Assembly: GCF_002854065.1 (NCBI RefSeq) | Contig: NZ_CP024147.1 | Length of the DNA: 64,000 nt | Strand: one strand, 5' to 3' | Source of the DNA: Escherichia coli | GTDB lineage: Bacteria > Pseudomonadota > Gammaproteobacteria > Enterobacterales > Enterobacteriaceae | In this document: piece by piece, positions 3,281 to 64,000 of the stretch | Layout: every line of letters starts with the position of its first letter | Numbering within the stretch: position 1 is the stretch's first letter | Position numbers and translations under genes: made by a program | The notes under the pieces: generated by a model | Seen by the model: only the letters and a program-made list of their open reading frames with translations | What the model was told of the DNA's origin: nothing | Database searches by the model: none

Positions 3281-4138
3281 ATGAAAGCACCAGGCTTGCC
3301 CGCCGATCAACAATTTTTCGCCGATCTGTTCAGCGGCCTGGTGCTTAACCCGCAACTACTGGGGCGCGTCTGGTTTGCCAGCCAGCCTGCCTCGTTGCCG
3401 GTGGGCAGTTTATGTATTGATTTTCCCCGTCTGGATATCGTGCTGCGCGGCGAATACGGCAATCTGCTGGAAGCAAAGCAGCAACGTTTGGTGGAAGGAG
3501 AAATGCTGTTTATTCCGGCGCGCGCGGCTAATTTACCGGTCAACAACAAACCGGTGATGCTGTTAAGCCTGGTGTTCGCTCCGACCTGGCTTGGGTTATC
3601 GTTTTACGATAGCCGCACCACGTCGTTGTTGCATCCTGCTCGCCAGATCCAGCTTCCCAGCCTGCAACGCGGTGAAGGTGAAGCGATGCTTACCGCCCTC
3701 ACCCATCTTAGCCGTTCGCCGCTGGAGCAAAATATCATTCAGCCGCTGGTGTTAAGTTTGCTGCATCTTTGCCGTAACGTGGTGAATATGCCGCCGGGCA
3801 ATTCGCAGCCGCGCGGCGATTTTCTCTATCACAGCATTTGTAACTGGGTTCAGGATAATTATGCCCAGCCGCTCACCCGCGAGAGCGTGGCGCAGTTTTT
3901 TAATATCACGCCCAATCATCTGTCAAAACTGTTTGCTCAGCATGGAACGATGCGTTTTATCGAGTATGTGCGTTGGGTGCGAATGGCGAAGGCGAGGATG
4001 ATTTTGCAGAAATATCATCTGTCAATTCATGAAGTGGCACAGAGTTGCGGTTTTCCGGATAGCGACTATTTTTGTCGCGTTTTCCGGCGTCAGTTTGGTC
4101 TGACGCCGGGAGAGTACAGCGCCCGTTTTCAGGGCTAA
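3281..4138 (+). CDS. ypdC: AraC-family transcriptional regulator YpdC
   Basis: 285 aa with C-terminal AraC HTH signature (HLSKLF...FPDSDYFCRVFRRQFGLTPGEY). Confidence 0.85.
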   Translation: MKAPGLPADQQFFADLFSGLVLNPQLLGRVWFASQPASLPVGSLCIDFPRLDIVLRGEYGNLLEAKQQRLVEGEMLFIPARAANLPVNNKPVMLLSLVFAPTWLGLSFYDSRTTSLLHPARQIQLPSLQRGEGEAMLTALTHLSRSPLEQNIIQPLVLSLLHLCRNVVNMPPGNSQPRGDFLYHSICNWVQDNYAQPLTRESVAQFFNITPNHLSKLFAQHGTMRFIEYVRWVRMAKARMILQKYHLSIHEVAQSCGFPDSDYFCRVFRRQFGLTPGEYSARFQG

Positions 4139-4140
4139 CG

Positions 4141-6636
4141 TCAGAAGGTTAATTCTGTTTCCAGCAGCGTCAGGATACTTTGTGCATCTTGCGCGGCAAA
4201 CAATGACTGGCGGAAGTTTTTATTCACCAGTTTACGCGCCAGCTGCGAGAAGACTTTCACATGATTCATCCCTTCGTTAGCACCCAGCGTCAGCATGATC
4301 ACCAGTTCGACTTCGCCCATTTCTGACTGCCAGTCAACCGGTTTCGCCAGCCGGGCAATGCTGATACTGGAATGACGGATCCACTGAGATTTGGTGTGCG
4401 GGATCGCCACGCCAAAACCAACGCCAGTGGTGACAATCTCTTCCCGCTGCCAGACATCCTCTTCCAGCTCGAACGGATGTTCAGTGCGCCCGTTAACGCC
4501 GAGGTTACCGCACAGGAACTGGATCGCCTGCTCTTTATTGCTAAAGGCCTGATCAACGAAGATATTCTCCAGCGCCAGCAGCGGGCGAACGTCTTCTTCC
4601 GGCGTAAAGGCGGTGAGTAACGCTTCAATTTCCTGCGCGCTGCGGCATTCACACGCCTGACGTGCCAGTTCCCGACACGCCTCGCTATCCAATTGACGAA
4701 GCTGGCTTTTCACCGCCGGAATGCGCGGGCTACTCATACTCAGCTCATCCAGGCCCAGCCCAAGCAGTAGCGGCAGATAACGGCTTTCACCGCCCAGTTC
4801 ACCGCAAATGCCTACCCATTTGCCCCGCTGATGCGCAGTGGTAACTATTTGCTGCAACATGCGCAGGAACGATGGCGTAATCGGGTTATATAGCGGCGAT
4901 ACGCGCGGGTTATTACGATCGACCGCATACAGATACTGGGTCATATCGTTGGAGCCGATACTGAAGAAATCGACCTCATCGCAGAAGTGATCGATGATGT
5001 AGCACACCGACGGCACTTCCACCATGATACCCAGCGTAATCGTCTCTGCATGACGCAGGCCATCGCGCTTAAGCTCAACGATCGCTTTTTGGATCTCGCC
5101 CTTCACCCATAAGATCTGATCGAGGCTGTGGACCATCGGGATCATCAACTGGGCGTTGCCGAAACTGGCGGCGCGCAAAATGGCCCGCAGTTGAGTGCGG
5201 AACAGGCCAGCAAATTCCGGGTAAATACGTACCGCGCGATAGCCGAGGAACGGGTTCTCTTCCTGGGGAATATTCAGATAAGGAATGCTTTTATCGCCTC
5301 CGATGTCCATTGTGCGGAAGATAATCGGCTTGTCGCCCGCTGCCAGTAGCACCTGCTGGTAGGCTTCAAATTGCTCCTGCTCGTCCGGCGCGCTGTCGCG
5401 ATCCATATAGAGCATTTCGGTACGGAACAGCCCGACGCCTTCCGCGCCGTTGGCAAACGCGCCAGGCGCTTCCAGAGCGGTGCCAATATTCGCCGCGATA
5501 TCAATACGCTTGTTATCACGGGAATAAGCCAGCTGCGCGGCAGCCTGCGCCTGTTGTTTTTGGCGTTTATCCGCCAGCGTCTGCGCGACCTGATAATAAC
5601 CGCTCACCGCGTCATTCGGGTTAATCGCCAGCACGCCGCACTGGGCGTCAAGCACTGCAGGTTGCCCGGCATAACGGGCAATCGCATCCAGCGGCAGGCC
5701 GCTCAGTACCGGGATCGCCGAGGCGCGGGCCAGAATCAGGGTATGCGAGGTGCGCCCGGTTTTCTCCAGAATCATACCCGCAAGATTTTTTAAATCCAGG
5801 CTTAAAAACTGGCTTGGGGTTAAATCCTCGGCCACCAGAATAGTCGGTTTTTCCAGCACCAGATTGTTGCGCGGCTTCAGTTCCGGCCAGGTAATATGCA
5901 GCAACTGTTCGCTAATATCGCGAATGTCGCTAACACGTTCGCGCAGATAATCGCTGGCAGAAGCAGAAAGTTTGGCGCAAACCTGCTCCATATTGCTGAT
6001 GATCGCCGCCCCCAGCCCCTGATGCTGTTCTGTCATCAGGCGACGGATATTGCCTGCAAATTCATCATCCTGAATCAGCGACAAATGGGCGCTGAGGATA
6101 GTTTTGCTTTCGCCGTCACGCTCACGCAATTGCTGGTTCAGTTGCTCGGCAAGCGTTGCCAGGCTGTGCTCCAGCCGGGTGGAATCTTGCGCACTGGCGG
6201 GGATTGCCCGATAACTGTCGAGGCTGTCGCTTTGTAACAGGGTCAGCGTACCCACGCCGACGCCGCTTGCCAGCACATTGCCGTACAGTAAATCCGGGTT
6301 AAGGCGGCTTAATGAACGCGGCAGCGGATGCGCCGTCAGTTCTGCCTGCGTAGGCTGAACGCTGTCGCTGTCGATAAAGCGCACCTGGATGTACTCTTCC
6401 AGCACGCGCCGCGCCTGCTCTTCATCGCTGCCGCTAATGTTCAGGCTGCAACTGTCATTAAATAGGGTGCCGGTGCCAATCAGCGCCAGCGAGCTTTTGG
6501 CATCGGCCTTTGCGTTCTGGCGATGGTTAATAAAAGTGATTTCGCTTTGCCACTGGCTGCACTGTTCTTTAAGTTCCCACGCCGGACGAGCATGTAGACC
6601 GTTAGGCAAAGGACAGAGAAATTGAATCGTTAACAT
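4141..6636 (-). CDS. fryA: PTS multiphosphoryl transfer protein FryA (HPr - enzyme I - IIA fusion)
   Basis: 831-aa ORF with N-terminal HPr-like domain (GLHARPA), enzyme I PEP-utilising core and C-terminal fructose-type IIA domain. Confidence 0.9.
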   Translation of the reverse strand: MLTIQFLCPLPNGLHARPAWELKEQCSQWQSEITFINHRQNAKADAKSSLALIGTGTLFNDSCSLNISGSDEEQARRVLEEYIQVRFIDSDSVQPTQAELTAHPLPRSLSRLNPDLLYGNVLASGVGVGTLTLLQSDSLDSYRAIPASAQDSTRLEHSLATLAEQLNQQLRERDGESKTILSAHLSLIQDDEFAGNIRRLMTEQHQGLGAAIISNMEQVCAKLSASASDYLRERVSDIRDISEQLLHITWPELKPRNNLVLEKPTILVAEDLTPSQFLSLDLKNLAGMILEKTGRTSHTLILARASAIPVLSGLPLDAIARYAGQPAVLDAQCGVLAINPNDAVSGYYQVAQTLADKRQKQQAQAAAQLAYSRDNKRIDIAANIGTALEAPGAFANGAEGVGLFRTEMLYMDRDSAPDEQEQFEAYQQVLLAAGDKPIIFRTMDIGGDKSIPYLNIPQEENPFLGYRAVRIYPEFAGLFRTQLRAILRAASFGNAQLMIPMVHSLDQILWVKGEIQKAIVELKRDGLRHAETITLGIMVEVPSVCYIIDHFCDEVDFFSIGSNDMTQYLYAVDRNNPRVSPLYNPITPSFLRMLQQIVTTAHQRGKWVGICGELGGESRYLPLLLGLGLDELSMSSPRIPAVKSQLRQLDSEACRELARQACECRSAQEIEALLTAFTPEEDVRPLLALENIFVDQAFSNKEQAIQFLCGNLGVNGRTEHPFELEEDVWQREEIVTTGVGFGVAIPHTKSQWIRHSSISIARLAKPVDWQSEMGEVELVIMLTLGANEGMNHVKVFSQLARKLVNKNFRQSLFAAQDAQSILTLLETELTF

Positions 6637-54437: not shown

Positions 54438-55799
54438 TCAGAAGAACAGTGACGGATCGCCCGCCCGTTTGATCAAGCGACCGTTTGCCATAATGCCCAT
54501 GCTTTCCAGCCAGCGTTCAAACTCCGGTGACGGGCGCAGGTTGAGTAACTGACGCACAGTGGCAGTGTCGTGGAAGGCGGTGGTCTGGTAGTTGAGCATG
54601 ATGTCATCGCCCAACGGCATCCCCATGATGTAATTGCAGCCTGCGGTGGCGAGCAGGATCATCAGGTTTTCGTTGAGGTTCTGGTCAGCGTCAGCGTGGT
54701 TGGTGTAACAGCAGTCACAGCCCATAGAGATGCCGCTCAGCTTGCCCATAAAGTGATCTTCTAAGCCCGCACGGATAATCTGGCGGTCGTTGTAGAGATA
54801 CTCCGGCCCAATAAAGCCGACCACGGTGTTGACGATAAACGGATCGTAATGACGCGCCAGCCCATAGTTACGTGCTTCCATCGTCACCTGGTCTGCGCCG
54901 AAGTTAGCGCCAGCGGATAGCGCTGAACCTTGTCCGGTTTCGAAGTAGAGGCAGTTTTCCCCGGCGATACGGTTGAACTCTGCACCCACTGCGCGCGCTT
55001 CGTCGAGCATCGCCAGTTCCACGCCAAACTCTTTCAGCCCTTTTTCACTGCCACAGATACTCTGGAAAATCAGCCCGCCTGGTGCGCCACGACGAATCGC
55101 TTCGATCTGGGTGGTGACGTGCGCCAGTACGCAGCCCTGAGTTGGGATGTTGAATTTGTCGATCACGCCATAGATGGTGTCCAGCACGCGGCTTAAGTTT
55201 TCCACGTCGTCAGTCACCGGGTTAACGCCGATCACCGCATCGCCCACCCCGAAGGAAAGCCCTTCGTAGATTTGCGCGGCGATACTTTGCACGTCGTCAC
55301 GGGTGTCATTTGGCTGCAAACGGGCGCTGAAGGTGCCCGGAATACCGATGGTGGTATTGGCCTTTTTGATTACCGGCATTTTCTTCGCGCCGTAGATCAG
55401 GTCCGCGTTGGAGCAAATCTTCGCTATCGCCGCGACCACTTCCGAGGTCAGCCCTTTGCGGGTAAAGGTAATGTCGTCCACGCTGGTTTCATCGCTCAGC
55501 ACATACTCACGCAGTTCGCTGATGCTCCAGTTTTTAATCTGGTTGTAGGCCGTTTCGTTAACATCGTCCTGAATCAGCCGCGTCACGCAGTCATCTTCAT
55601 AGGCAATCACCGGATTATTGCGGATGTCCGCTACGGTCATTTCCGACAACACCTGCTTTGCCGCCACGCGCTCCTGTGAACTTGCCGCTGCAACGCCTGC
55701 CAGCACATCCCCCGAACGCAGTTCGTTGGCTTTAGCCAGCACCTCTTTTACATCCTTAAACTGATATACATTGCCGAACAATGTGGTCTTTAGTTTCAT
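54438..55799 (-). CDS. eutB: Ethanolamine ammonia-lyase large subunit EutB
   Basis: 453 aa, MKLKTTLFGNVYQFKDVKEVLAKANELRSGD. Confidence 0.95.
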   Translation of the reverse strand: MKLKTTLFGNVYQFKDVKEVLAKANELRSGDVLAGVAAASSQERVAAKQVLSEMTVADIRNNPVIAYEDDCVTRLIQDDVNETAYNQIKNWSISELREYVLSDETSVDDITFTRKGLTSEVVAAIAKICSNADLIYGAKKMPVIKKANTTIGIPGTFSARLQPNDTRDDVQSIAAQIYEGLSFGVGDAVIGVNPVTDDVENLSRVLDTIYGVIDKFNIPTQGCVLAHVTTQIEAIRRGAPGGLIFQSICGSEKGLKEFGVELAMLDEARAVGAEFNRIAGENCLYFETGQGSALSAGANFGADQVTMEARNYGLARHYDPFIVNTVVGFIGPEYLYNDRQIIRAGLEDHFMGKLSGISMGCDCCYTNHADADQNLNENLMILLATAGCNYIMGMPLGDDIMLNYQTTAFHDTATVRQLLNLRPSPEFERWLESMGIMANGRLIKRAGDPSLFF

Positions 55800-55986
55800 A
55801 AGTCGTTCCCTCAGGAAGAAGTGATGAGTAACATTTCTTCCAGCATTCGAACAATTCTATTTCATCGTTAGCCCTTGTCCTGTAAGGTAATTGTCTTAAC
55901 ACGCCCGTTATTCATCATGCCGAACGCAACCGAACGCGCCGGATACATGATCGGGTTTATCCAGTCGTTATGTCGAGGTATCCGGT

Positions 55987-57192
55987 TTGAGCAAGACACC
56001 ACTCACAGCAAAGGCCATCGCAGCCGCGCAGCCAAAAGACAAGCCCTATAAACTCACCGATTCACTGACGCCAGGACTGTTTTTGCTGGTGCATCCCAAC
56101 GGCAGCAAATACTGGCGATTCAGGTATTGGTTGAATAAACGAGAGTTTTTGCAGGCCATTGGTGTTTACCCGCTAATCACACTCAAAGAAGCACGCAGAC
56201 GCGCCACAGAGAGCCGATCTCTGATTGCTAATGGAATTAATCCAGTGGAAGAAGCACGCAAGGAAAAAGCCATTGATGCGCTCAACATGGCGGCAGGTTT
56301 TAAGACGGTAGCGGAGGACTGGCTGGCTACCAGGGTCAGCGGGTGGTCAGAGTCCTACACGAAACAGGTTAGATCGGCACTGGAAAAAGATGTTTACCCC
56401 GTGCTGGGGAAGCGGTCAATTGTCGATATAACGGCCCGTGACGTGCTGGAATTGCTTCAGAAGAAAGAGCGTACCGCACCGGAACAAGCCAGGAAGCTAC
56501 GCCAGCGTATCGGGGAGATCTTCAAATTTGCCGTTATCACCGAACTGGTGGCAAGAAATCCGGTTGCAGATCTGAACACAGCACTAAAAGCCCGCCGTCC
56601 GGGCCACAACGCATGGCTGCAAATTAACGAAATTCAGGCGTTCTATGAAGCACTTGAGAGAGCCGGGAGCGTCCAGATTCAGACGGCAATACGTTTGCTC
56701 ATATTGAGCGCTCTAAGGACGGTGGAACTGCGTAAAATGCGCTGGGAATGGGTTAACCTGGAAGACGCGATCATCACCCTACCCGCTGAAGTCATGAAGG
56801 CCCGTCGCCCGCATGTGGTCCCGCTATCACGGCAGGCGGTAGAGCTATTGCAGGACCAGTTTACTCGCACCGGATACAGCGCTTTCGTCTTCCCTGGTCG
56901 ATTCATGGATAAGCCCTTGTCTGCCAGCGCGATACTGAAAGCCCTGGAGCGTATCGGATACAAGTCGATAGCCACAGCACACGGCTGGCGTACAACGTTC
57001 AGCACGACGCTTAACGAGTCCGGCAGGTACTCACCAGACTGGATTGAAATCCAATTGGCCCACGTCCCGAAGGGTGTACGCGGTGTATATAACCAGGCGG
57101 CCTATCTCAAACAGCGCCGTCAAATGCTTCAGGACTACGCCGACGCCATTGATTCAATACTGGCTGGTGAAGGTAATCCGCTGGAACCGTGA
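55987..57192 (+). CDS. intZ: P4-type tyrosine integrase (IntZ-like, CPZ-55-type prophage)
   Basis: 401 aa, apparent TTG start; catalytic R (LRTVELRKMRWEWV), HxxR (HGWRTTFST) and Tyr (GVYNQAAY) regions. Confidence 0.85.
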   Translation: MSKTPLTAKAIAAAQPKDKPYKLTDSLTPGLFLLVHPNGSKYWRFRYWLNKREFLQAIGVYPLITLKEARRRATESRSLIANGINPVEEARKEKAIDALNMAAGFKTVAEDWLATRVSGWSESYTKQVRSALEKDVYPVLGKRSIVDITARDVLELLQKKERTAPEQARKLRQRIGEIFKFAVITELVARNPVADLNTALKARRPGHNAWLQINEIQAFYEALERAGSVQIQTAIRLLILSALRTVELRKMRWEWVNLEDAIITLPAEVMKARRPHVVPLSRQAVELLQDQFTRTGYSAFVFPGRFMDKPLSASAILKALERIGYKSIATAHGWRTTFSTTLNESGRYSPDWIEIQLAHVPKGVRGVYNQAAYLKQRRQMLQDYADAIDSILAGEGNPLEP

Positions 57193-57198
57193 ACTATA

Positions 57199-57224
57199 AG
57201 GCCGGATTCGTCCGGCTTTTCTTT
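57199..57224 (+). terminator. Terminator after integrase
   Basis: GGCCGGA-TTCG-TCCGGC hairpin followed by TTTTCTTT. Confidence 0.7.
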
Positions 57225-57231
57225 CGCTAAT

Positions 57232-57259
57232 TATTCCACTATTCCAATTAAGTGGAATA
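57232..57259. promoter_or_regulatory. Inverted repeat (candidate operator) between int and the 255-aa gene
   Basis: TATTCCACT-ATTCCAATTA-AGTGGAATA, perfect 9-bp arms. Confidence 0.4.
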
Positions 57260-57418
57260 AATTATTCAATATCAAAAACTTACATCAATATTGCAACAAT
57301 AAAAACGGTGGCTTATGATCAGATCATGATTTTCGGTATGTGAACAGCAAAAACAAGAAGCCCGGAAAGGCGGCAACCAATCCGGGCGATATGGGAAAAG
57401 AGATTAGGAGGTTTCCCC

Positions 57419-58186
57419 ATGCGTAATAGTTTAGCAGTTCGCTTTAGCTTGCAGCAAGGCGAAGAATTATCACAGGAATATCAATTCATCAAATACGAAG
57501 AAGCGCCGGAACAGGTGCAAATAGCTTTTGATGATCAGCACTACGGCAACACTATCCGCTACGACGGTAAAAAATGGTTTCTCAATCCGGTAACAAATGC
57601 CATTCACGTATGTCAAATCATTACGCCAGTAAATAACAGCGCGGATAACGATTCGGCTATTGACGCTGAACTGGTGACAGAACCACTACCGCCACCGCCG
57701 CCAGTACAAGAAAGCGATGTAAAACCCGACGCCATCGATCTGACAGCAGAAGCCAGAGAGCGCAAACAACCGAAGCCGGAACAACCGCAAGCCAAGGATA
57801 ACAAACAGTGGCACGGTAACACGGCGTATCTGAATACGTTTGCTTGTCATCTTCATGAAGTGCTACCACAGGCCATCTATAGCACATGGTGCGACAAACA
57901 AACGGCGGCACACTTCCACCTGCTTTACGCGCTTTGCTACCTGGCAAGCTACGAAAACAAAGATGAAGGTATCGAGCTTGGCGAGGTGTTATATGGTGCT
58001 GAAAAGATCACAAAGGGCGGCGTAGTACCTGGTTTCCATATGGCCCGATCAACGTTCGATATCAAGATTAACGAGCTTGAACAGTGGGGATTAATCAAGG
58101 TAACACGAGGTAAGAAACGTAAGGACGGGCAAGGCAACTTGCCGAACAGTATCAAACTGAACTTTAAGCCGTACAGTTTAAAATAA
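57419..58186 (+). CDS. Prophage hypothetical protein with Pro-rich linker and possible C-terminal winged-helix DNA-binding domain
   Basis: 255 aa; AGGAGG SD 8 nt upstream; N-terminal domain, LPPPPPVQ...PKPEQPQ linker, C-terminal STFDIKINELEQWGLIKVTRGKKRK. Confidence 0.6.
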   Translation: MRNSLAVRFSLQQGEELSQEYQFIKYEEAPEQVQIAFDDQHYGNTIRYDGKKWFLNPVTNAIHVCQIITPVNNSADNDSAIDAELVTEPLPPPPPVQESDVKPDAIDLTAEARERKQPKPEQPQAKDNKQWHGNTAYLNTFACHLHEVLPQAIYSTWCDKQTAAHFHLLYALCYLASYENKDEGIELGEVLYGAEKITKGGVVPGFHMARSTFDIKINELEQWGLIKVTRGKKRKDGQGNLPNSIKLNFKPYSLK

Positions 58187-58194
58187 TCACACTA

Positions 58195-58220
58195 GGCGGG
58201 CAATGTTCCCGCCTTTTCTT
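58195..58220 (+). terminator. Terminator after the 255-aa gene
   Basis: GGCGGG-CAATGTT-CCCGCC followed by TTTTCTTT. Confidence 0.7.
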
Positions 58221-58243
58221 TGCCTCAATCCTATAAAATTCAC

Positions 58244-58282
58244 ATCCCGAAAATCGGTATCTGGGTATCCCGAAAATCGGTA
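58244..58282. repeat. Two tandem 16-bp direct repeats, each internally palindromic
   Basis: ATCCCGAAAATCGGTA at 58244-58259 and 58267-58282 (core CCGA-AAA-TCGG), 23-bp spacing. Confidence 0.7.
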
Positions 58283-58289
58283 AGTAATA

Positions 58290-59400
58290 ATAAGTATTAT
58301 CCTTAAAGGTAAAAACCATATAAGTAAGATCTATCTCTTCAAGAATGTATATATTCACTACGTTCATATATACATGAGAAGTTTCCCTTTCATGCAGTCA
58401 AAACTACATTCATCAGCATCGCTTTCTGCGCTCTCCTTCCCAGCAAGCTGGAAAGGCCCATTCACTCACGCACAACCTGCAAACCAGACCAACATACCAT
58501 CATGGCGATTCGTTCATGGGTAGCGCGGGTATATCTCAAAGGGTGATTTCTTCTTGGTGGACCTTCGGAAGACTTCGAGCAATCGCCAGCTCAAAAGACG
58601 GTCTGGCAGTGATGGTTATCATCGACAGCATTGAGCGCTACCGCGCCAACTTACAGCAGCAGGATAACTACCGAAGGAAAACCCACGCCGAAAGGGATTG
58701 ACTCACTGCAAAGCCAATGGGTTTTATCAGCGTATACAGACCAGACAGGAAACAGCAGCAAAGCAGCGTATAGCCAGGTGCAGACAGTACCATCACACAA
58801 CGCACAGCAGGCTGAGGTGAACACTCAAACAGGTTTATCCCCGCAGCCGACCAACGCAAACCATCCTGACCGTGCCAAATTCGAACGGAATGGTGCCTGT
58901 AACGCGATGAACACATATAACCGCTTACTTGCTTACCTGAAAACTTCACGTCGCCACAGAGCGATTTAGACGCATTATAATTGATGCGATTTCATTAAAT
59001 TTTCACCAGACACCGGAACAACGCCGATTAATCCAGGAATGGATTCATCGACATGCGCCGCTTTCCCCGCAGAACAGTCTCGCCTGAATAGTCTCACCAA
59101 CCAGATTTCAGATTGTCCAATCAGGCACGTCTCATTAAACGACAGAATGCGGCCTACAACGCCATCGCTGCCGATCTCGTTTGAGCAAGGTGCTGAGACT
59201 GAATGACGGACGCCCACTCCTCAGAGCTGAGGAATCGCCACACAGAACGCTGAGATCTGATATTACCGCCGCACCATTCCACGCCAGACGAATCAATCTA
59301 ATCACACCTGAGCAAATGCATTGCCAAAAATTAAGGCCGTCAGAATGCGTTATATTGCGTTTAAACGGCATCTAATTTTAATTAGTTTTGATGTGGTGAT
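58290..59400. other. ORF-poor prophage segment with only short overlapping ORFs; possible gene remnants or noncoding RNA
   Basis: No ORF over 112 aa on either strand across about 1.1 kb; the largest is S/T/Q-rich and of low complexity; contains an AT-rich 10-bp inverted repeat ATGTATATAT/ATATATACAT (58345-58375). Confidence 0.4.
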
Positions 59401-59668
59401 TGCAGGCAAAAAAAATCCCGCCGGAGAGAGCGGGGAAGTGAAATCAATCGTTGTAGTTATAGATCACATTTTGAGTAAGGGTTACCAGCCCTTGAGTAAT
59501 ATTATCCCTGTATTACGTGAGATGCGCAATTATTTTTTGCTAATTAAAAGTTTTGTAAACATTACAGAATATCCCCTTTCCCTATATGGTAAAAGATGTG
59601 AAACAGGGACATGAGGAATATAATATTAAGTATCAACAGTAATGTTGGTCTTTAATTTCATTCAGGGC

Positions 59669-59710
59669 GCGGTGAGGGTTTTCCCATATTTTTCCTCACC
59701 GCTACTTTTT
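59669..59710 (+). promoter_or_regulatory. Hairpin plus T-run directly upstream of the alpA-like gene ribosome-binding site
   Basis: GCGGTGAGG-16 nt loop-CCTCACCGC followed by TACTTTTT and then GAGGTGAGAACATG. Confidence 0.45.
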
Positions 59711-59721
59711 GAGGTGAGAAC

Positions 59722-59913
59722 ATGAATGATAGCGAATTAATGACGGTGAGCGAGGTAGCCGCTTTATTCGGCGTTACCCGACGCACTATATTCCGCTGGC
59801 TGAACAAGATTAAAGGTTGGCCCGTTCCGGTTACTCCGGTCGGTGCACGAATTAAGTTTATCCGATCTGAGATTTTGGAATTCTATAAAAACAAAGGCGC
59901 TCGCCACCAATGA
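59722..59913 (+). CDS. AlpA/Xis-family small HTH DNA-binding protein (prophage regulator or excisionase-like)
   Basis: 63 aa, LMTVSEVAALFGVTRRTIFRWL HTH; SD GAGGTGAG. Confidence 0.7.
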   Translation: MNDSELMTVSEVAALFGVTRRTIFRWLNKIKGWPVPVTPVGARIKFIRSEILEFYKNKGARHQ

Positions 59914-59989
59914 AAACAGCTACTGAGATTATCAAATAACCTATTGATTTAATAAGCTAGCTACCGCAATTTCTGAAGGAATAGGCAGC

Positions 59990-60316
59990 ATGAAAATCAA
60001 AGCAAACACAATTAAAGAAATAACATCAATCAAAGTAAAAGGAGCAGATGCCATGCATTCATTAGACAGTTATTTTCAGCGCACGACAGCCCCTAAATCA
60101 GCCGCCCAGGAACGCCGTGAGGAATTCCAGGAAAAAGTGATGCGTTCTGCTGATTATATTGCGGACAAGTTCGTGGAAACGGTTCGGCCACTTGTTGATG
60201 AAGTAGCTGATAAACTTCAGTCTGAAATGCCGGAAGACATGGAAGGCACTGCAAAGGCGCGACTCCTTTTTGAATTAAGTCGTCGTTTCGGCGTGTCAAT
60301 AAGCACTTTTAAATAA
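59990..60316 (+). CDS. Hypothetical prophage protein
   Basis: 108-aa ORF, AAGGA SD, co-directional tight spacing with neighbours. Confidence 0.5.
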   Translation: MKIKANTIKEITSIKVKGADAMHSLDSYFQRTTAPKSAAQERREEFQEKVMRSADYIADKFVETVRPLVDEVADKLQSEMPEDMEGTAKARLLFELSRRFGVSISTFK

Positions 60317-60333
60317 TCGGAGGAGAAAAGACA

Positions 60334-60876
60334 ATGGACGCATTTGATGTACTGACAAACAAAGGCGATGAACTGGTAGCACAGCGTGATAAAACCGCCA
60401 ACGAAGGGGAACGCGCACTGTTAAATAAGCAGATTAAAGCGATCCGTATGGCCCAGTTTAAATTAATCAGCAATGAAGTTATCGAAATAATTAAACCGCA
60501 GATCCCACAAATCGTTGCTGACGCTATTAAAGCCGCCGGACTGGAGAAACGCATTGCCGGGCTGAAAACGAACGCAGAGAAAATGGAGATGCACAAACAG
60601 AGCGGTGCTCCGACTCCGGATGAGTACTTCTCACCGGATGCTGAGTTTATGGCGCAGGTTGAGGAACGTCTGGGTAGCTGTCTCACCGAGGAACAGCGTC
60701 GCTATTTTGATGGAGTGGATAGTTCGGCAGGTATTGACCTGAACTCGTGTTTCGGTCGTGAAATTGAGCATTTTGATGCCGCCCCGTCTATGCCGGAGCC
60801 AGAACCAGAAATGGCCGCCGATCCTGAAGCTGAGCAACGGAAACGCGTATTCAATGCGATAGGGATTCGGTACTGA
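60334..60876 (+). CDS. Hypothetical prophage protein (acidic C-terminus)
   Basis: 180-aa ORF with strong GGAGG SD 8 nt upstream. Confidence 0.6.
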   Translation: MDAFDVLTNKGDELVAQRDKTANEGERALLNKQIKAIRMAQFKLISNEVIEIIKPQIPQIVADAIKAAGLEKRIAGLKTNAEKMEMHKQSGAPTPDEYFSPDAEFMAQVEERLGSCLTEEQRRYFDGVDSSAGIDLNSCFGREIEHFDAAPSMPEPEPEMAADPEAEQRKRVFNAIGIRY

Positions 60877-60927
60877 TCGGATAAAAGAAAGCCGGGAATT
60901 ACCCCGGCTGACTTAACAATGTGACCA

Positions 60928-61302
60928 ATGAACAAATCGGACAAGACAAACAGGATAAGCAGTCTCGAAACAATGTTCGGGAACTATATTAGCACAAGTC
61001 CGGAGAAAATCATCATGTTGGCACTACGCATCATGCAGGGCATCGCTAAGACCCTCGCAGAACATGTCTTAGACCTGAAACATTCGCCACTGAGCAAACA
61101 GGCCATGAAGCGCCAAACGCTTCGTCTGTGGGCTGAATATTCGCTTGGAACTATCAATAAAATCATCGACATGAAATCGGGGCCGAGCAACCAGAGCGCG
61201 GAGGAAATGGAGTTCATCAGGCGTTTAATTCTCATTCGCAGAGATATTCATAGCCAGTTACACAGCGTGGGAATCGATATTAATGATGGGACGGGCGATT
61301 AA
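60928..61302 (+). CDS. Hypothetical prophage protein
   Basis: 124-aa ORF; weak SD, start uncertain. Confidence 0.45.
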   Translation: MNKSDKTNRISSLETMFGNYISTSPEKIIMLALRIMQGIAKTLAEHVLDLKHSPLSKQAMKRQTLRLWAEYSLGTINKIIDMKSGPSNQSAEEMEFIRRLILIRRDIHSQLHSVGIDINDGTGD

Positions 61303-61340
61303 TTTTCGGACAAGTACAATGCGCGCGCGAGGAGCTGAAC

Positions 61341-61571
61341 ATGAAGCAAGATATTGCAGACAGGCTGGAGATACTCGAAGGCCAGCGGGCAGAAGCGAAA
61401 CAACTACGTAAGCAGGCCAGAAGAGCGCACAGGAACTACGAAGCAGAATCACTGACCGCTTTCATCAACTTCACAAACCGTTGCATCCAGGAGTGTTACA
61501 GGGAGGATGCAGAAAACTGGCTGGATTCATTGCCAGAACAGACTCTGCATGAACTGAACGGCGACCAGTAA
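61341..61571 (+). CDS. Hypothetical prophage protein
   Basis: 76-aa ORF with GAGGAG SD. Confidence 0.5.
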   Translation: MKQDIADRLEILEGQRAEAKQLRKQARRAHRNYEAESLTAFINFTNRCIQECYREDAENWLDSLPEQTLHELNGDQ

Positions 61572-61859
61572 ATAAATCCAGTACGTTTCCCGCAGTGCGC
61601 ATAACGTACATTATGTGAAAAACGATATGGATGTATATCAGTATTGATTTCATTGAGAAAACTGGGTTTTCAGTGGCACAGACAAAGAAGCATAGCTGAT
61701 ACAGCTTTATAAGCCATTGATTCTATTAAGTGATGTTTTTTGTGATTGGTTGAAGCAAACCAAAACACGATGCCACTGAAGCGTTAATAAACTGTTTCAA
61801 TGTGAAATTATTAGAGTAAAGAACAATTTGGAGGGTCCGCAAACGCGGATAACAATATC

Positions 61860-64000
61860 ATGAGTGGAAATCTCGGGACCATATACTACGAGGTCGATGC
61901 CCGCACTGGGAAACTTCTTATCGCGCAACAGCAGGCGGAAGAGGCGTTCGATCGCATTGAACGAGGAGCGCGGAAGGCTGATAGCGGCGTCAAAAAGTTA
62001 AATACGCAGATGACTAAAACATCAGCCGCAGTCAAAACCAACCTTTCCCCGGCAATCCGTAACGCATCATACCAGATCGCAGACCTTGCCACTCAATTGC
62101 AGATGGGCGGTAATGCGCTTCAGGCGTTCGCTGTGCAGGGTGCGCAGTTATTAGCTGGCTTTGGCACGATGGGCGCGGTAGCTGGCGCGGTGCTGGCTAT
62201 CGCTGGCGCTATGGGTGGAAGCCTGGCACAAGGCGCTGATAGTGCAGCCGGATCGGTTGAGTATCTGGACAAGGCGATCACCAAACTGAACGAGGTCATA
62301 GCTGTAAATGAACAGGGCGTGACGGTGATGAGTGATAGTTACGCCAGACTTTCTAAGGTTAACGCTGAAGTAGCGAAACAGATGCGGAACATGGCTGAAA
62401 TTCAGGCAATTGCAGCACTGCGTGACCTGAAAGAACAGGCAAGCCAGGCACAGGGGGAAATGTCGTCATTCTGGCGCAGCTTGCAGGGTGGTAAAGCTGA
62501 CGCAGCAGCAGCAGCACAGGCACTTGATGATCTTGGAATCACAACCAACGACTACAAAGAGGCGATAGCCATACTGAACGCCAATCAGCCGGATACACAG
62601 GCGCAAATGGCAACGCTAGCCAAATCCGTGATGTATGTTGGAGAGCAATATGATCTGACCAACCAGCAAGCATACGAATTTATACGCGCACTAAATAAGG
62701 CCGCGACAACGAAAACGCCGGAAGCCATGCAGGAGCTATCTGGCTTCATGCAGGTTTTGCTTCAGGATACCGAAAACGGTAACGAGGCATTCCGTGAACT
62801 GGCTATCAAATTCGTCGATGCACAAACCAAAGGCGCAATGTTGGAGGACCAACTAAACCGACTGAAAGGCGCTATTAGTGACGCAGCCACAGAAGCCAGA
62901 AACGCAAACTTTACCACTATGCTCAACACCGTCGCCGCACGCCTGGCAACCATTGAGCAAGGTTGGGAGGCAGGCGTTAGGATGCAGATGAAAGCCCAGG
63001 GCTACACTGAAGAGCAGATCGATGAATATGTGAACATGGAAACGGCGTACCGTGATGCAAAAGCCGCTTTGGACGAGAAGAACAAGGCCGACCGTGAAGC
63101 TATTGCGCTATCCAAACGCCAGGCCGCAGAAGCAGCCCGCAAGGCAAAACAGGAAGAAGCTGAAGCACAACGCAAGGCCAAACAGTTAGCCGCGCAGAAG
63201 GAGCAGGCAGGACGCTTTACGCAGCAAGTAATGACGGAATACCTGACGACCGTAGATCCGGCAACAGGCAAGGCGTTTAACCCTGCCGCACAAGTAGAAA
63301 TGCAGGAGCAGCAGAAGAAAGCGGCGCTGGATAAATACAGACAGTTGGGCGTCCTGGATGAACAGCAGTACCAGAACACGCTAACCGCCATCCAGAAAAC
63401 CGCGTCAATGCGCCGCCAGCAAATCATCAAAGACGAGGCCGACACGTTATTCAACAATCAGCAACAGTTGATCGGCACATTTGGCGATTTCTTCGGTGAA
63501 CTGTCTGGAGTCATAGCAGACGGTGCAGGTGAGCAAAACGCGGCATATCAAGCGCTATTTGCTGTGCAGAAGGGTTTTGTATTGGCATCAGCAGCTTTAA
63601 GCCTTCAGAAAGCGCTTGCTGAGGCAAACGCCTTGCCTTTCCCGGCTAATCTTCCGGCCTATGCGCAAGCTATGTCAGCAGGTACGCAGATCATTTCAGC
63701 TATTCGTGGAATAGCTTTCGGTGGCGGACGCTACAACGGCGGCGCGGTTGGTGCTGGCAACCTGTACCGCGTGGGTGAACACGGTAAGCCTGAGATATTC
63801 AAGGCGAACAATGGCAGCCAGTACATGATCCCAGGTGATAACGGTCGCGTGATAAGTAATCGTGACATTGGCGGCGGTGGCGGCGTAACAATCAACAGCC
63901 CGATCACCATTAACACTACGAATGGCTTCAGTGATGAAGACTCAAGGCGTCTTGAGGAAGCGATGAAGCGCGTAGCTATGGGCGTTTGCAGGCAGGAGTC
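61860..64000 (+). CDS. Phage tail tape measure protein, 5' part; ORF runs off window end
   Basis: Open frame from ATG 61860 to the window end (over 700 codons; absent from the ORF track because no stop); hydrophobic Gly/Ala-rich segment, long A/Q/K-rich coiled coils, GNLYRVGEHGKPEIF motif resembling lambda gpH. Confidence 0.65.
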   Translation, partial: MSGNLGTIYYEVDARTGKLLIAQQQAEEAFDRIERGARKADSGVKKLNTQMTKTSAAVKTNLSPAIRNASYQIADLATQLQMGGNALQAFAVQGAQLLAGFGTMGAVAGAVLAIAGAMGGSLAQGADSAAGSVEYLDKAITKLNEVIAVNEQGVTVMSDSYARLSKVNAEVAKQMRNMAEIQAIAALRDLKEQASQAQGEMSSFWRSLQGGKADAAAAAQALDDLGITTNDYKEAIAILNANQPDTQAQMATLAKSVMYVGEQYDLTNQQAYEFIRALNKAATTKTPEAMQELSGFMQVLLQDTENGNEAFRELAIKFVDAQTKGAMLEDQLNRLKGAISDAATEARNANFTTMLNTVAARLATIEQGWEAGVRMQMKAQGYTEEQIDEYVNMETAYRDAKAALDEKNKADREAIALSKRQAAEAARKAKQEEAEAQRKAKQLAAQKEQAGRFTQQVMTEYLTTVDPATGKAFNPAAQVEMQEQQKKAALDKYRQLGVLDEQQYQNTLTAIQKTASMRRQQIIKDEADTLFNNQQQLIGTFGDFFGELSGVIADGAGEQNAAYQALFAVQKGFVLASAALSLQKALAEANALPFPANLPAYAQAMSAGTQIISAIRGIAFGGGRYNGGAVGAGNLYRVGEHGKPEIFKANNGSQYMIPGDNGRVISNRDIGGGGGVTINSPITINTTNGFSDEDSRRLEEAMKRVAMGVCRQE

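What the first reader, a model, noticed from the sequence alone, without database searches (positions are those of the whole stretch)
58290..59400. About 1.1 kb of ORF-poor DNA inside the island
Bacterial and phage DNA is normally densely coding, yet no ORF over 112 aa occurs here on either strand, and the longest ones are low-complexity and mutually overlapping. The stretch could hold frameshift-decayed genes or one or more noncoding RNAs. The AT-rich inverted repeat ATGTATATAT-N11-ATATATACAT at 58345-58375 could be a promoter or origin element.
Basis: seen in the sequence. Interest (0 to 1): 0.45.

Follow-up and report, generated by a model that had tools for sequence, protein, structure and literature searches.

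The report
Island's noncoding origin and control region
The gene-free 1.5 kb is real and looks like non-coding DNA rather than decayed genes: it appears to hold the replication origin of a small plasmid-like E. coli island (the CPZ-55 family), two conserved DNA blocks of unknown role, and, at its right edge, a predicted new small RNA and a terminator guarding the island's regulator gene.

Summary
58187-59721 has no credible gene, and 58187-60308 is by far the longest stretch of the window without an ORF of at least 113 aa. The window is E. coli. The island is a CPZ-55-type element inserted between eutB and eutA.

The gap is not decayed coding DNA:
- Variable sites show no codon periodicity.
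- Close relatives differ by 1-nt indels.
- No ORF translation matches PHROGs or NCBIfam.

The same gap of 1.1-1.8 kb recurs in every relative examined that keeps both flanking modules, including free circular 8-9.7 kb plasmids.

Its parts:
1. Iteron sequence changes with the type of upstream winged-helix protein.
2. Blocks A, B and C around a variable cargo slot. B and C are about 85% identical to a plasmid whose regulator protein is only 54% identical. They are unstructured, and their function is unresolved.
3. Just beyond 59400, a candidate ~87-nt minus-strand sRNA with a conserved promoter and two covarying hairpins.
4. A covarying intrinsic terminator immediately 5' of the HTH gene.

Nothing matches Rfam. 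There are no expression data, so every RNA and promoter call is a prediction. Moderately interesting.

The parts
57419..58186 (+). Context: 255-aa protein with a C-terminal winged-helix domain, the putative replication initiator
   Evidence: ORF. It aligns with YffL and other 'HTH domain' proteins at the same position. 6 of 12 members match Pfam HTH_36, but the window protein itself matches nothing. The AF2 model has pLDDT 62.7 with a helical/winged-helix C-terminal part. Only generic winged-helix fold hits were found, E>=0.2.
58194..58214 (+). Intrinsic terminator of the 255-aa gene
   Evidence: AGGCGGGCAATGTTCCCGCCT followed by TTTCTTT. Conserved in K-12, L005, L011 and L018.
58244..58282 (.). 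Two 16-nt iterons, ATCCCGAAAATCGGTA, start-to-start spacing 23 bp
   Evidence: A metagenome relative has three copies of the same 23-bp unit (L062). Relatives with other initiator types have 3-6 different iterons at the same place.
58283..58400 (.). AT-rich stretch (30-31% GC), the candidate DNA-unwinding element; contains the inverted repeat 58345-58354/58366-58375 and one GATC
   Evidence: Composition, repeat. 98-99% conserved in the five full-length relatives with the same initiator type, and 91% in the partial L062.
58428..58620 (.). Block A: conserved non-coding DNA shared with K-12 CPZ-55, where it lies upstream of yffM
   Evidence: 86-90% identical across K-12, L005, L018 and L044 (89.7% in K-12). 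1-nt indels between variants around 58585-58590. Function unknown.
58557..59005 (.). Block B: conserved non-coding DNA, core 58717-58912. Nearly invariant motifs include GTGCCAAATTCGAACGGAATG and GATGCGATTTCATTAAATTTT
   Evidence: Present in 194 of 5426 E. coli genomes. 85% identical to plasmid CP057168.1. No codon periodicity and 1-nt indels. Fold z-scores -1.07 (+) and +0.24 (-). Alifold gives only -17 kcal/mol over 316 nt. The hairpin at 58971-58988 is not kept in 4 of 8 variants. Absent from some relatives (L060, L062, K-12).
59006..59237 (.). Variable slot between blocks B and C; empty here
   Evidence: The length between B and C ranges from 42 bp to about 900 bp among relatives. It holds + strand cargo ORFs in L005, L007/L017 and L018.
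59243..59407 (.). Block C: conserved non-coding DNA with a 53-nt nearly invariant core, CAGAACGCTGAGATCTGATATTACCGCCGCACCATTCCACGCCAGACGAATCAA
   Evidence: Present in 213 of 5426 genomes. 84% identical to plasmid CP057168.1. No structure: alifold -4.3 kcal/mol with 0 compensatory pairs. The minus-strand ORF over it has stops or frameshifts in 5 of 14 variants and no codon bias (14:19:19). That ORF family has only 6 tiny clusters and no Pfam domain.
59408..59494 (-). Candidate ~87-nt small RNA: 5' hairpin 59493-59477, conserved single-stranded middle 59476-59435, terminator hairpin 59434-59417 followed by U8
   Evidence: Terminator. The same architecture appears in 11 variants with at least 6 different 5' stems. 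Covariance model R1 finds it in 28 loci, 14 of them distinct. 91.3% of cells are paired against 84.7% in shuffles (0/500), and 4 pairs change on both sides. No Rfam family: the only hit is GcvB at E=0.55, driven by the terminator. The 5' end is predicted, not mapped.
59501..59529 (-). Predicted promoter of the small RNA: -35 TTGCGC (59529-59524), 17-nt spacer, -10 GATAAT (59506-59501)
   Evidence: -10 is invariant, -35 is TTGCnn or TTTCGC, and the spacer is exactly 17 nt in all 11 variants although the spacer sequence differs. The PWM score of 7.5 is not by itself above shuffles.
59596..59624 (+). Predicted promoter of the HTH operon: -10 TATAAT at 59619-59624, weak -35
   Evidence: A TAtAAT or TAaAAT hexamer is kept at the same aligned position in all variants. 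PWM score 9.3, not above shuffles.
59669..59710 (+). Intrinsic terminator (attenuator) between that promoter and the HTH gene's ribosome-binding site: GCGGTGAGG...CCTCACCGC, then a U-run
   Evidence: A hairpin plus U-run ends 5-12 nt before the start codon in 10 distinct variants. There are at least 5 different stem sequences, and z-scores run from -2.0 to -4.5. Also present in plasmid NZ_CP062859.1.
59722..59913 (+). Context: 63-aa HTH_17 / excisionase-AlpA-type DNA-binding protein, first gene of the rightward operon
   Evidence: Pfam HTH_17 at 3.9e-8. PHROG 66 'excisionase and transcriptional regulator' at 1.5e-8. TIGR01764 'excise' scores 25.6 bits, below its cut-off of 28.8.

Best explanation
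The ORF-poor stretch is the non-coding control region of a CPZ-55-type integrative element that is organised like a small iteron plasmid. Reading left to right:

(i) Origin. Together they form a vegetative origin (inferred).

(ii) Blocks A, B and C. These conserved non-coding blocks flank a slot where relatives carry cargo genes. They act as DNA or as unstructured untranslated RNA. I take them to be cis-regulatory or leader sequence of the rightward operon. This step is the weakest and no mechanism is shown.

(iii) Right edge. A back-to-back promoter pair makes a ~87-nt terminated RNA leftwards and a short leader rightwards. The leader ends in an intrinsic terminator just before the HTH gene. 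Expression of the island's main operon would therefore need read-through or antitermination (inferred from anatomy).

Shown here: the sequence features, their conservation and their covariation. Inferred: replication, transcription and regulation.
For: Non-coding status:
- Variable sites fall 57:49:61 over the three phases in block B and 14:19:19 in block C.
- Variants that are 85-99% identical differ by 1-nt indels and an A-run of variable length.
- No ORF in the gap matches PHROGs or NCBIfam.
- tblastn of all gap peptides against 60+ related loci finds only collinear homology, in all six frames.

A family feature:
- Every relative examined that keeps both modules, whether chromosomal island or free plasmid, has 1.1-1.8 kb essentially without annotated genes between the first gene module and the HTH gene; only short hypothetical ORFs or cargo genes are called in it.

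Origin:
- 3-6 direct repeats of 16-24 bp, spaced 23/24/33 bp, lie directly 3' of the winged-helix gene in all eight related loci tested, representing four other initiator types.
- Their sequence changes with the protein type.
- The window has 2 copies and L062 has 3.
- GC falls to 30% right after the iterons.
- Plasmid relatives add consensus DnaA boxes (TTATCCACA/TGTGGATAA) beside the iterons: two flanking the array in NZ_CP062859.1, one each in CP057350.1 and CP057168.1.
- The module occurs on circular 8-9.7 kb E. coli plasmids with no other recognisable replicon.

Constraint on B and C:
- They are about 85% identical to CP057168.1, whose HTH protein is only 54% identical and whose other genes are below blastn detection.

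sRNA and attenuator:
-.
Against: - The window's own origin is minimal: two iterons, and no DnaA box within one mismatch.
- The 255-aa protein matches no Pfam or NCBIfam family, and its model finds only generic winged-helix folds. 'Initiator' therefore rests on context.
- An iteron-like operator in the gene's own promoter is seen in only 2 of 9 variants.
- Promoter calls are not above shuffled sequence on score alone.
- There are no transcription data.
- Blocks B and C have no repeats, no structure, and no motif shared with the rest of the island, so 'regulatory' is an assignment by exclusion.
- Block B is missing from some relatives.
- High identity of B and C to the plasmid could reflect recent recombination in a mosaic element rather than selection.
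- No convincing target for the sRNA was found within the island.
Confidence: 0.6

Rival explanations
1. The stretch is the wreck of one or more protein genes, inactivated by frameshifts and stops. Examples would be a leftward repressor-type gene across C and the variable slot, or a rightward gene across B.
For: - Stop-free runs of 90-99 codons occur in one + frame of block B in 9 of 15 variants, and 72-97 codons in a minus frame in several.
- A minus-strand ORF starting at 59371 keeps its frame in most variants. It is intact in L006, L013 and L014 (133 aa annotated in L006).
- The + strand A-richness resembles that of the island's coding regions.
Against: - There is no third-position excess in any frame.
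- 1-nt indels separate variants that are 98.7% identical.
- No family hits.
- The minus-strand ORF family has 6 tiny clusters of 74-120 aa with no domain among 5.8 billion proteins.
- A neutral pseudogene should not stay about 85% identical where the neighbouring regulator protein has dropped to 54%.
- The long open frames are expected from low T on the + strand and low A on the minus strand. My estimate is about 4% stop codons per codon.
Confidence: 0.08
2. Blocks B and/or C are genes for one or more long, largely unstructured non-coding RNAs, or a long untranslated leader of about 700 nt read rightwards into the HTH operon. The minus-strand small RNA would then act on it as a cis-antisense regulator.
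For: - The persistent strand asymmetry over 58350-59350 (+ strand C>G and A>T) flips exactly where the minus-strand sRNA gene starts.
- A TAnAnT hexamer at 58976-58981, with GTCACA/GCCACA 17 nt upstream, is kept in 15 variants even where the overlapping hairpin is lost.
- All cargo ORFs in the slot are on the + strand.
- The geometry of antisense RNA plus downstream terminator resembles countertranscript attenuation.
Against: - No conserved secondary structure or covariation in B or C.
- No Rfam match.
- The candidate promoter scores low in the window itself and none exceeds shuffles.
- No antiterminator alternative to the attenuator could be identified.
- A C-rich, G-poor untranslated RNA would be expected, from general knowledge, to be terminated by Rho.
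- No expression data.
Confidence: 0.2
3. Blocks B and C are DNA sites used by another element. Candidates are a cos/pac packaging site recognised by a helper phage's terminase (some relatives carry an HNH endonuclease next to the HTH gene), an oriT, or recombination sites for an invertible or exchangeable cassette.
For: - Sequence conservation without structure or coding fits a protein-binding DNA site.
- HNH endonuclease genes follow the HTH gene in L009, L015, L018 and L019.
- The HTH protein has weak similarity to small-terminase N-termini, E 1.7e-4 to 1.6e-3.
- The plasmid relatives encode a serine recombinase.
- The slot between B and C is hypervariable.
Against: - No similarity to any of 50,697 phage records, even at E<=10 with the cores alone.
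- No viral-contig match.
- Only two plasmid records match, both relatives or K-12-derived DNA.
- The 10-nt B/C inverted repeat (58887-58896 / 59271-59280) is not co-conserved in other variants.
- Two independent records of one plasmid are identical, with no inverted segment.
- There are no repeated motifs.
Confidence: 0.07

Closest known systems
Iteron-controlled theta replicons (pSC101, F/RepE, R6K/pi, P1/RepA) and the rep-then-iteron origins of phage-inducible chromosomal islands (SaPI type)
   Same: The initiator gene is followed by tandem 16-24-bp direct repeats at about two helical turns, then an AT-rich stretch. Iteron sequence is specific to the initiator variant. Iteron copy number varies. 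DnaA boxes flank the array in the plasmid relatives.
   Different: The protein is not recognisably a Rep_3 / RepA-type initiator; it has only a generic winged helix. The window copy has just two iterons and no good DnaA box. Autoregulatory inverted iterons are not general. Replication is untested.
E. coli K-12 cryptic prophage CPZ-55 (intZ-yffLMNOPQRS, between eutB and eutA)
   Same: Same insertion site and same integrase (86% nt identity). Homologous block A. The YffL protein occupies the position of the 255-aa protein and has its own four iterons.
   Different: K-12 has lost everything from about 58620 to inside the 124-aa gene: blocks B and C, the small RNA, the HTH gene and two more ORFs. 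yffM is a fusion ORF created by that deletion.
Satellite phage P4 immunity region (untranslated leader of the alpha operon, processed CI RNA, premature termination). This comparison is from memory, not tested.
   Same: A small integrative or plasmid-capable element in which a long untranslated region precedes the main operon, and where termination before the first gene plus a small RNA appear to be the control points.
   Different: There is no sequence or Rfam similarity to C4/CI-type RNAs. The small RNA here has its own divergent promoter rather than being cut from the leader. No seqA/seqC-type complementarity was found. There is no alpha-type primase.
Promoter-proximal terminators overcome by Q-type antiterminators (lambda pR'-tR' with Q; Pseudomonas aeruginosa AlpA at alpB). 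This comparison is from memory.
   Same: A promoter is followed within about 80 nt by a strong intrinsic terminator placed before the operon it controls. An AlpA/Xis-type small HTH protein is encoded by the element.
   Different: Here the terminator precedes the HTH gene itself. The protein matches HTH_17 rather than Phage_AlpA. No binding element or antitermination has been shown.
Countertranscript-driven attenuation of rep genes in pT181 / pIP501 / pAMbeta1. This comparison is from memory.
   Same: A small terminated antisense-strand RNA lies upstream of an intrinsic terminator that sits just 5' of the regulated gene's ribosome-binding site.
   Different: The small RNA would overlap the regulated mRNA only if a promoter upstream of 59408 exists, which is unproven. 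No alternative antiterminator pairing was found. The regulated gene is not the initiator.

Membership tests
Iteron-type plasmid/satellite replication origin | Tandem direct repeats of about 17-24 bp at helical-repeat spacing next to the initiator gene | tested here: met
   2 x 16 nt at 23-bp spacing at 58244-58282. All eight related loci tested have 3-6 repeats at 23/24/33 bp.
Iteron-type plasmid/satellite replication origin | Repeat sequence specific to the cognate initiator (co-variation of protein type and iteron) | tested here: met
   Five protein types have five unrelated iteron sequences, and the same type has the same iteron (K-12, L011, L018; L008, L009, L012; L013, L014).
Iteron-type plasmid/satellite replication origin | Adjacent AT-rich unwinding region | tested here: met
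   30-31% GC at 58250-58400 against 45-50% around it. An A/T-rich stretch follows the iterons in L019, L065 and L066.
Iteron-type plasmid/satellite replication origin | DnaA box(es) near the iterons | tested here: not met
   The window has no TTATCCACA within one mismatch near 58187-58420; the best is TTATCCTTA, two mismatches. The feature is met in plasmid relatives L019, L065 and L066.
Iteron-type plasmid/satellite replication origin | Initiator belongs to a known Rep family | tested here: inconclusive
   The window protein has no Pfam or NCBIfam hit. 6 of 12 relatives match HTH_36. RepL and RP-C appear only at E about 0.05-0.07. Fold search gives generic winged helix with E>=0.2.
Iteron-type plasmid/satellite replication origin | Supports autonomous replication | not testable with these tools
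   Indirect only: the module sits on circular 8-9.7 kb plasmids without another recognisable replicon.
Any described RNA family (Rfam 15) | Covariance-model score at or above the family's gathering threshold | tested here: not met
   Scan of 55800-64000 at E<=1 gave only GcvB at 19.9 bits against a threshold of 42, E=0.55, aligned mainly on the terminator.
Pseudogene (decayed protein-coding gene) | Alignable to an intact homologue or protein family across frameshifts, with a residual codon-position bias | tested here: not met
Terminator-ended bacterial small RNA gene | Own promoter, conserved in position and spacing | tested here: met
   TTGCnn - 17 nt - GATAAT in all 11 variants despite divergent spacers. 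This is a prediction from conservation; the score alone is not significant.
Terminator-ended bacterial small RNA gene | Intrinsic terminator and other helices maintained by compensatory change | tested here: met
   14 distinct sequences. 91.3% paired against 84.7% shuffled (0/500). 4 pairs changed on both sides (7/500). Slid controls give 36-55%. The alignment was fitted to the model, which favours the structure.
Terminator-ended bacterial small RNA gene | Detectable transcript of the predicted size; identified target | not testable with these tools
   No expression data. Duplex prediction against island mRNAs was not better than shuffles.
Transcription attenuator / promoter-proximal terminator | GC-rich hairpin plus U-run between promoter and start codon, conserved by covariation | tested here: met
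   10 distinct variants, at least 5 stem sequences, z -2.0 to -4.5.
Transcription attenuator / promoter-proximal terminator | Regulated read-through (alternative structure, antiterminator protein or RNA) | not testable with these tools
   I did not see an alternative pairing. Reporter fusions would be needed.
Phage satellite (PICI / P4-like) | Integrase plus AlpA-type regulator plus replication module plus functions that hijack a helper phage's particles | tested here: inconclusive
   Integrase, HTH_17 protein and the iteron module are present, and all genes are on one strand. There is a 726-aa tape-measure-like protein (PHROG 1538, 9e-103) but no capsid, terminase or known interference genes. 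No match in IMG/VR.

The most novel reading that the evidence does not exclude
Blocks B and C, the ~87-nt divergent small RNA and the promoter-proximal terminator together form a previously undescribed non-coding switch. This switch decides whether a widespread but unstudied family of small E. coli elements stays silent or turns on. The family includes CPZ-55-type islands and their free 8-10 kb plasmid forms. B and C would be kept at about 85% identity across lineages because they are read by a conserved host or helper-phage factor.
Probability: 0.3. Interest if true: 0.6.

Novelty: new variant of a known kind. Interest (0 to 1): 0.4.

Why it matters
CPZ-55 is one of the nine cryptic prophages of E. 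coli K-12, and its y-genes have no assigned function.

If this reading is right, the family is not a degraded phage. It is an integrative, plasmid-like (possibly satellite) element with an iteron replicon. YffL would then be a replication initiator, and K-12 would carry a deletion derivative that has lost the control region.

About 4% of complete E. coli genomes carry the intact control region. It contains a cargo slot that holds toxin-antitoxin and other accessory genes in relatives.

The region offers three cleanly testable items: a predicted new small RNA, a promoter-proximal terminator in front of an Xis/AlpA-type regulator, and two strongly conserved non-coding blocks with no known counterpart. 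None of this overturns current understanding. It fills in an unannotated corner and corrects at least one likely spurious RefSeq gene call.

Tried and rejected
- **Rfam.** Scan of the island found nothing.
- **tRNA/tmRNA and tandem repeats.** None found.
- **Coding tests.** Periodicity, stops and indels. PHROGs and NCBIfam on ten gap ORFs. A 5.8-billion-protein search with the longest intact minus-strand ORF gave 6 tiny clusters. tblastn of all gap peptides against all loci gave only collinear DNA homology.
- **Structured RNA in B or C.** Rejected on fold z-scores and alifold.
- **Terminator at the end of block B (58971-58988).** It folds well in the window (z -2.97), but the hairpin is lost in L007, L008, L009 and L011. 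I do not call it a terminator.
- **Promoter prediction.** Neither the consensus scan nor my own rough PWM (frequencies recalled from memory) exceeded shuffles. Promoters are proposed only where position and spacing are conserved.
- **cos/pac or phage-derived site.** No phage or viral-contig similarity.
- **Invertible switch driven by the plasmids' serine recombinase.** This was suggested by inverted B-core-like motifs in CP057350.1. I rejected it because the window's B/C inverted repeat is not co-conserved, and two records of that plasmid are identical with no inversion.
- **sRNA targets inside the island.** Not better than shuffles.
- **Motifs shared between B/C and the rest of the island.** At chance level.
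- **Autoregulatory iteron in the initiator's promoter.** One 12/16 inverted match at 57324-57339 in the window and one direct match in L011. It is not general.
- **Other species.** My first scans of species-representative genomes and of viral contigs used a pattern that was one base out of register. This was my error, found. The corrected pattern also found nothing in species-representative genomes or in viral contigs.
- **Metagenome scan with a block-C 17-mer.** Gave 45 loci, of which 22 were true relatives and the rest chance matches.
- **Literature.** Searches for CPZ-55, intZ/yffL and yffM gave nothing on this region.
Full report
**Where we are.** The window is Escherichia coli. eutB ends at 55799 on the minus strand. 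A P4-type tyrosine integrase (intZ) runs 55987-57192 on the plus strand. It is followed, all on the plus strand, by:
- a 255-aa ORF (57419-58186);
- a gap;
- a 63-aa helix-turn-helix gene (59722-59913);
- several small ORFs;
- a long ORF that runs off the window.

RefSeq genomes that are 99.9% identical show the element sitting between eutB and eutA/maeB. This is the site of the K-12 cryptic prophage CPZ-55.

**Checking the observation.** No ORF above 112 aa overlaps 58290-59400. Over the whole window, the longest stretch not covered by any ORF of at least 113 aa is 58187-60308 (2122 bp), and the next longest is 685 bp. The real gap is 58187-59721.

**Is it decayed coding sequence?** I collected the homologous region from these sources:
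- 18 complete E. coli genomes;
- 4 plasmid records, representing 3 distinct plasmids;
- 22 metagenome contigs.

The evidence is against decayed coding sequence:
- Variable alignment columns fall evenly over the three phases: 57:49:61 in block B, and 14:19:19 in the frame of the best minus-strand ORF over block C.
- Variants as close as 98.7% differ by single-base indels, and an A-run varies from 7 to 11 bases.
- Stops interrupt every candidate frame in some variants.
- Ten gap ORFs hit nothing in PHROGs or NCBIfam. The one exception is a match at E=0.03 to an unknown-function family.
- The only ORF that is intact in some relatives has six tiny homologue clusters among 5.8 billion proteins and no domain.
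- Peptides from all six frames match related loci only at the collinear position, and equally in all frames. That is what DNA-level homology gives.

The plus strand is poor in T and G across 58350-59350.

**A family feature.** In every relative examined that keeps both flanking modules, the order is:
1. recombinase;
2. a 170-260-aa winged-helix protein (or, in L007/L017, a toxin-antitoxin pair instead);
3. 1.1-1.8 kb essentially without annotated genes, apart from short hypothetical ORFs and, in some relatives, cargo genes;
4. the small HTH gene.

This order holds in the free circular plasmids CP057168.1 (9.0 kb), CP057350.1/CP057337.1 (9.65 kb) and NZ_CP062859.1 (8.0 kb). These plasmids carry a serine recombinase instead of IntZ.

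The gap is a mosaic:
- a left part that changes with the upstream protein;
- block A (58428-58620, also in K-12);
- block B (58557-59005);
- a hypervariable slot (59006-59237 here, 42 to about 900 bp elsewhere, sometimes holding plus-strand cargo genes);
- block C (59243-59407);
- the region in front of the HTH gene.

**The left part is an origin (inferred, strong).**
- Directly after the terminator of the 255-aa gene lie two copies of ATCCCGAAAATCGGTA, 23 bp apart.
- A metagenome relative has three copies.
- Every other protein type has its own array at the same place:
  - four GGTGGGTCAAAAGTTGCCG after K-12 yffL;
  - four to six ACGTGTGACATTTGGGATACAGG;
  - three ACCCTACCCCAAAATGACCTACC;
  - four CCATTGCGTATAGATTCTATAC in the plasmid.
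- The arrays are followed by A/T-rich DNA.
- Consensus DnaA boxes lie beside the arrays in the plasmid relatives: two flank the array in NZ_CP062859.1, and CP057350.1 and CP057168.1 each have one.

This is the anatomy of an iteron replicon, and the existence of free plasmids argues that it works. There are caveats:
- The window copy has only two iterons and no DnaA box within one mismatch.
- The protein is not assignable to a Rep family.
- An iteron-like operator in its promoter is not general.

**Blocks B and C (function unresolved).** B occurs in 194 and C in 213 of 5426 complete E. coli genomes, essentially once per genome. Neither occurs in phage records or viral contigs, nor, as far as an exact-pattern scan with the B core could show, in 100,044 species-representative genomes. 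The only plasmid with B and C is the family's own CP057168.1; the other plasmid hit carries only K-12-type DNA (terminator region and block A).

Against plasmid CP057168.1 they are 85% and 84% identical. The adjacent HTH proteins are only 54% identical, and the other genes fall below blastn detection. So either these blocks are under strong selection as nucleotides or they were exchanged recently.

What the blocks lack:
- Repeats or shared motifs.
- Conserved RNA structure on either strand. z-scores are -1.07 and +0.24, and alifold gives -17 and -4 kcal/mol with almost no covariation.
- Any phage similarity, even at E<=10.

The hairpin at the end of B looks like a terminator in the window but is lost in four of eight variants. 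A TAnAnT hexamer in its loop, with GTCACA/GCCACA 17 nt upstream, is kept in all 15 variants. That hints at a rightward promoter reading into the cargo slot. The score in the window is low, and no predicted promoter in the gap beats shuffled sequence. B is absent from some relatives.

I considered an invertible switch because the plasmids encode a serine recombinase and carry inverted B-like motifs. I dropped the idea because the window's 10-nt B/C inverted repeat is not co-conserved, and two records of one plasmid show no inversion.

My working assignment is cis-regulatory DNA or an unstructured untranslated leader. This is by exclusion.

**The right edge: a small RNA and an attenuator (predicted, well supported as sequence features).**

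*The small RNA.* On the minus strand, a perfect intrinsic terminator (stem 59434-59417, then eight T) is preceded by a 42-nt nearly invariant unpaired stretch and a 5' hairpin (59493-59477). Upstream of that are GATAAT (59506-59501) and TTGCGC (59529-59524), separated by exactly 17 nt.
- Eleven variants keep the -10, the -35 type and the spacing, while the spacer and the 5' stem differ. There are at least six stem sequences.
- A covariance model finds the unit in 28 loci, 14 of them distinct.
- 91.3% of cells pair against 84.7% in shuffles (0/500). Four pairs change on both sides (7/500). Slid controls pair at 36-55%. The caveat is that the alignment was fitted to the model.
- Rfam has nothing for it.
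- I found no convincing target inside the island.

*The attenuator.* On the plus strand, a TATAAT/TAAAAT hexamer is kept at 59619-59624. About 45 nt further on, a GC-rich hairpin plus U-run (59669-59710) ends 12 nt before the HTH start codon. Ten distinct variants, including plasmid NZ_CP062859.1, keep this hairpin with at least five different stems, and z-scores run from -2.0 to -4.5. The anatomy implies that the operon is expressed only by read-through. What triggers read-through is unknown.

**Comparison with what is known.** The origin works like classical iteron replicons and like the rep-ori modules of chromosomal island satellites. Membership is met on repeats, specificity and the AT-rich region. 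It is not met on DnaA boxes in this copy, and it is open on the protein family. The right-edge circuitry recalls three systems: P4 immunity, Q/AlpA-type antitermination and countertranscript attenuation. These are resemblances recalled from memory, with no homology. The island is a fuller relative of K-12 CPZ-55, which has lost the region from about 58620 to inside the fourth downstream gene.

**Verdict.** The finding is real, and the stretch is neither an artefact nor a pseudogene. It is the non-coding origin-and-control region of an uncharacterised but fairly common E. coli element.
- Origin reading: confidence about 0.8.
- Non-coding status: about 0.85.
- Existence of the small RNA and the attenuator as functional units: about 0.6-0.7.
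- Regulatory role for B and C: about 0.4.
- Overall interest is moderate.

Noticed in passing
L004 (E. coli K-12 DHB4) 4763-4858, just 3' of yffL (4070-4711): K-12 yffL, a gene of unknown function, is followed by four 23-24-bp direct repeats (GGTGGGTCAAAAGTTGCCG core) and 2 x TAAGAATTCTA. This suggests that YffL is the replication initiator of CPZ-55.
   Followed up: partly
L004 5181-5426 (yffM) versus window 58611-58620 and about 61100-61302: K-12 yffM looks like a fusion ORF. Its start (GTGATGGTTATC) lies in non-coding block A/B, and its C-terminus resembles the end of the window's 124-aa ORF. A deletion of about 2.5 kb probably created it.
   Followed up: partly
L019 (CP057168.1), L066/L067 (CP057350.1/CP057337.1), L065 (NZ_CP062859.1): Free 8-9.7 kb 'non-mobilizable' E. 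coli plasmids share the island's gene order and rep-iteron module. CP057168.1 also shares blocks B and C. They carry a ~205-aa serine recombinase instead of the tyrosine integrase. The family therefore exists in both integrated and episomal forms.
   Followed up: partly
window 61860 to beyond 64000 (+); L002 11157-13337: A ~726-aa protein in this ~10-kb element matches tail tape-measure protein families (PHROG 1538, E 9e-103). No capsid, terminase or other tail genes are present, which is odd for so small an element.
   Followed up: no
window 59345-59614 (+): RefSeq annotates an 89-aa hypothetical protein (WP_001268866.1) here. It runs antisense across the predicted small RNA gene and through an A-run whose length varies from 7 to 11 among close relatives. 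It is probably a spurious call.
   Followed up: partly
L007/L017 1950-3299; L005 about 8642 onward; L009, L015, L018, L019 next to the HTH gene: Accessory cargo differs between copies. There is a YafO-type toxin-antitoxin pair in place of the initiator gene, an AIPR (abortive-infection-type) protein downstream, and HNH endonucleases after the HTH gene. The element has several cargo slots.
   Followed up: no
L006, L013, L014 (next to ychJ/purU and tyrT): Truncated copies of the same module (initiator-type gene, iterons, block B, part of block C) sit at a second chromosomal site beside ychJ. They lie among IS remnants and lack the small RNA and the HTH gene.
   Followed up: no
window 57291-57339: Upstream of the 255-aa gene there is a reasonable promoter (TTGCAA - 17 nt - TATGAT). 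It is followed by TCATGATTTTCGGTAT, a 12/16 inverted match to the iteron, which could be an autoregulatory operator. An equivalent is seen only in L011.
   Followed up: partly
window 58350-59350: There is a sustained strand asymmetry: the plus strand has C>G (skew down to -0.48) and A>T (up to +0.48). It reverses at about 59300-59400, where the minus-strand small RNA gene begins. A plus-strand transcript would be C-rich, G-poor and unstructured, like a Rho loading region.
   Followed up: no
window 59694-59721 and equivalents: In all variants the U-run of the attenuator can also pair with the Shine-Dalgarno region of the HTH gene, forming a small second hairpin in the folds. This hints at an additional translational block.
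   Followed up: no
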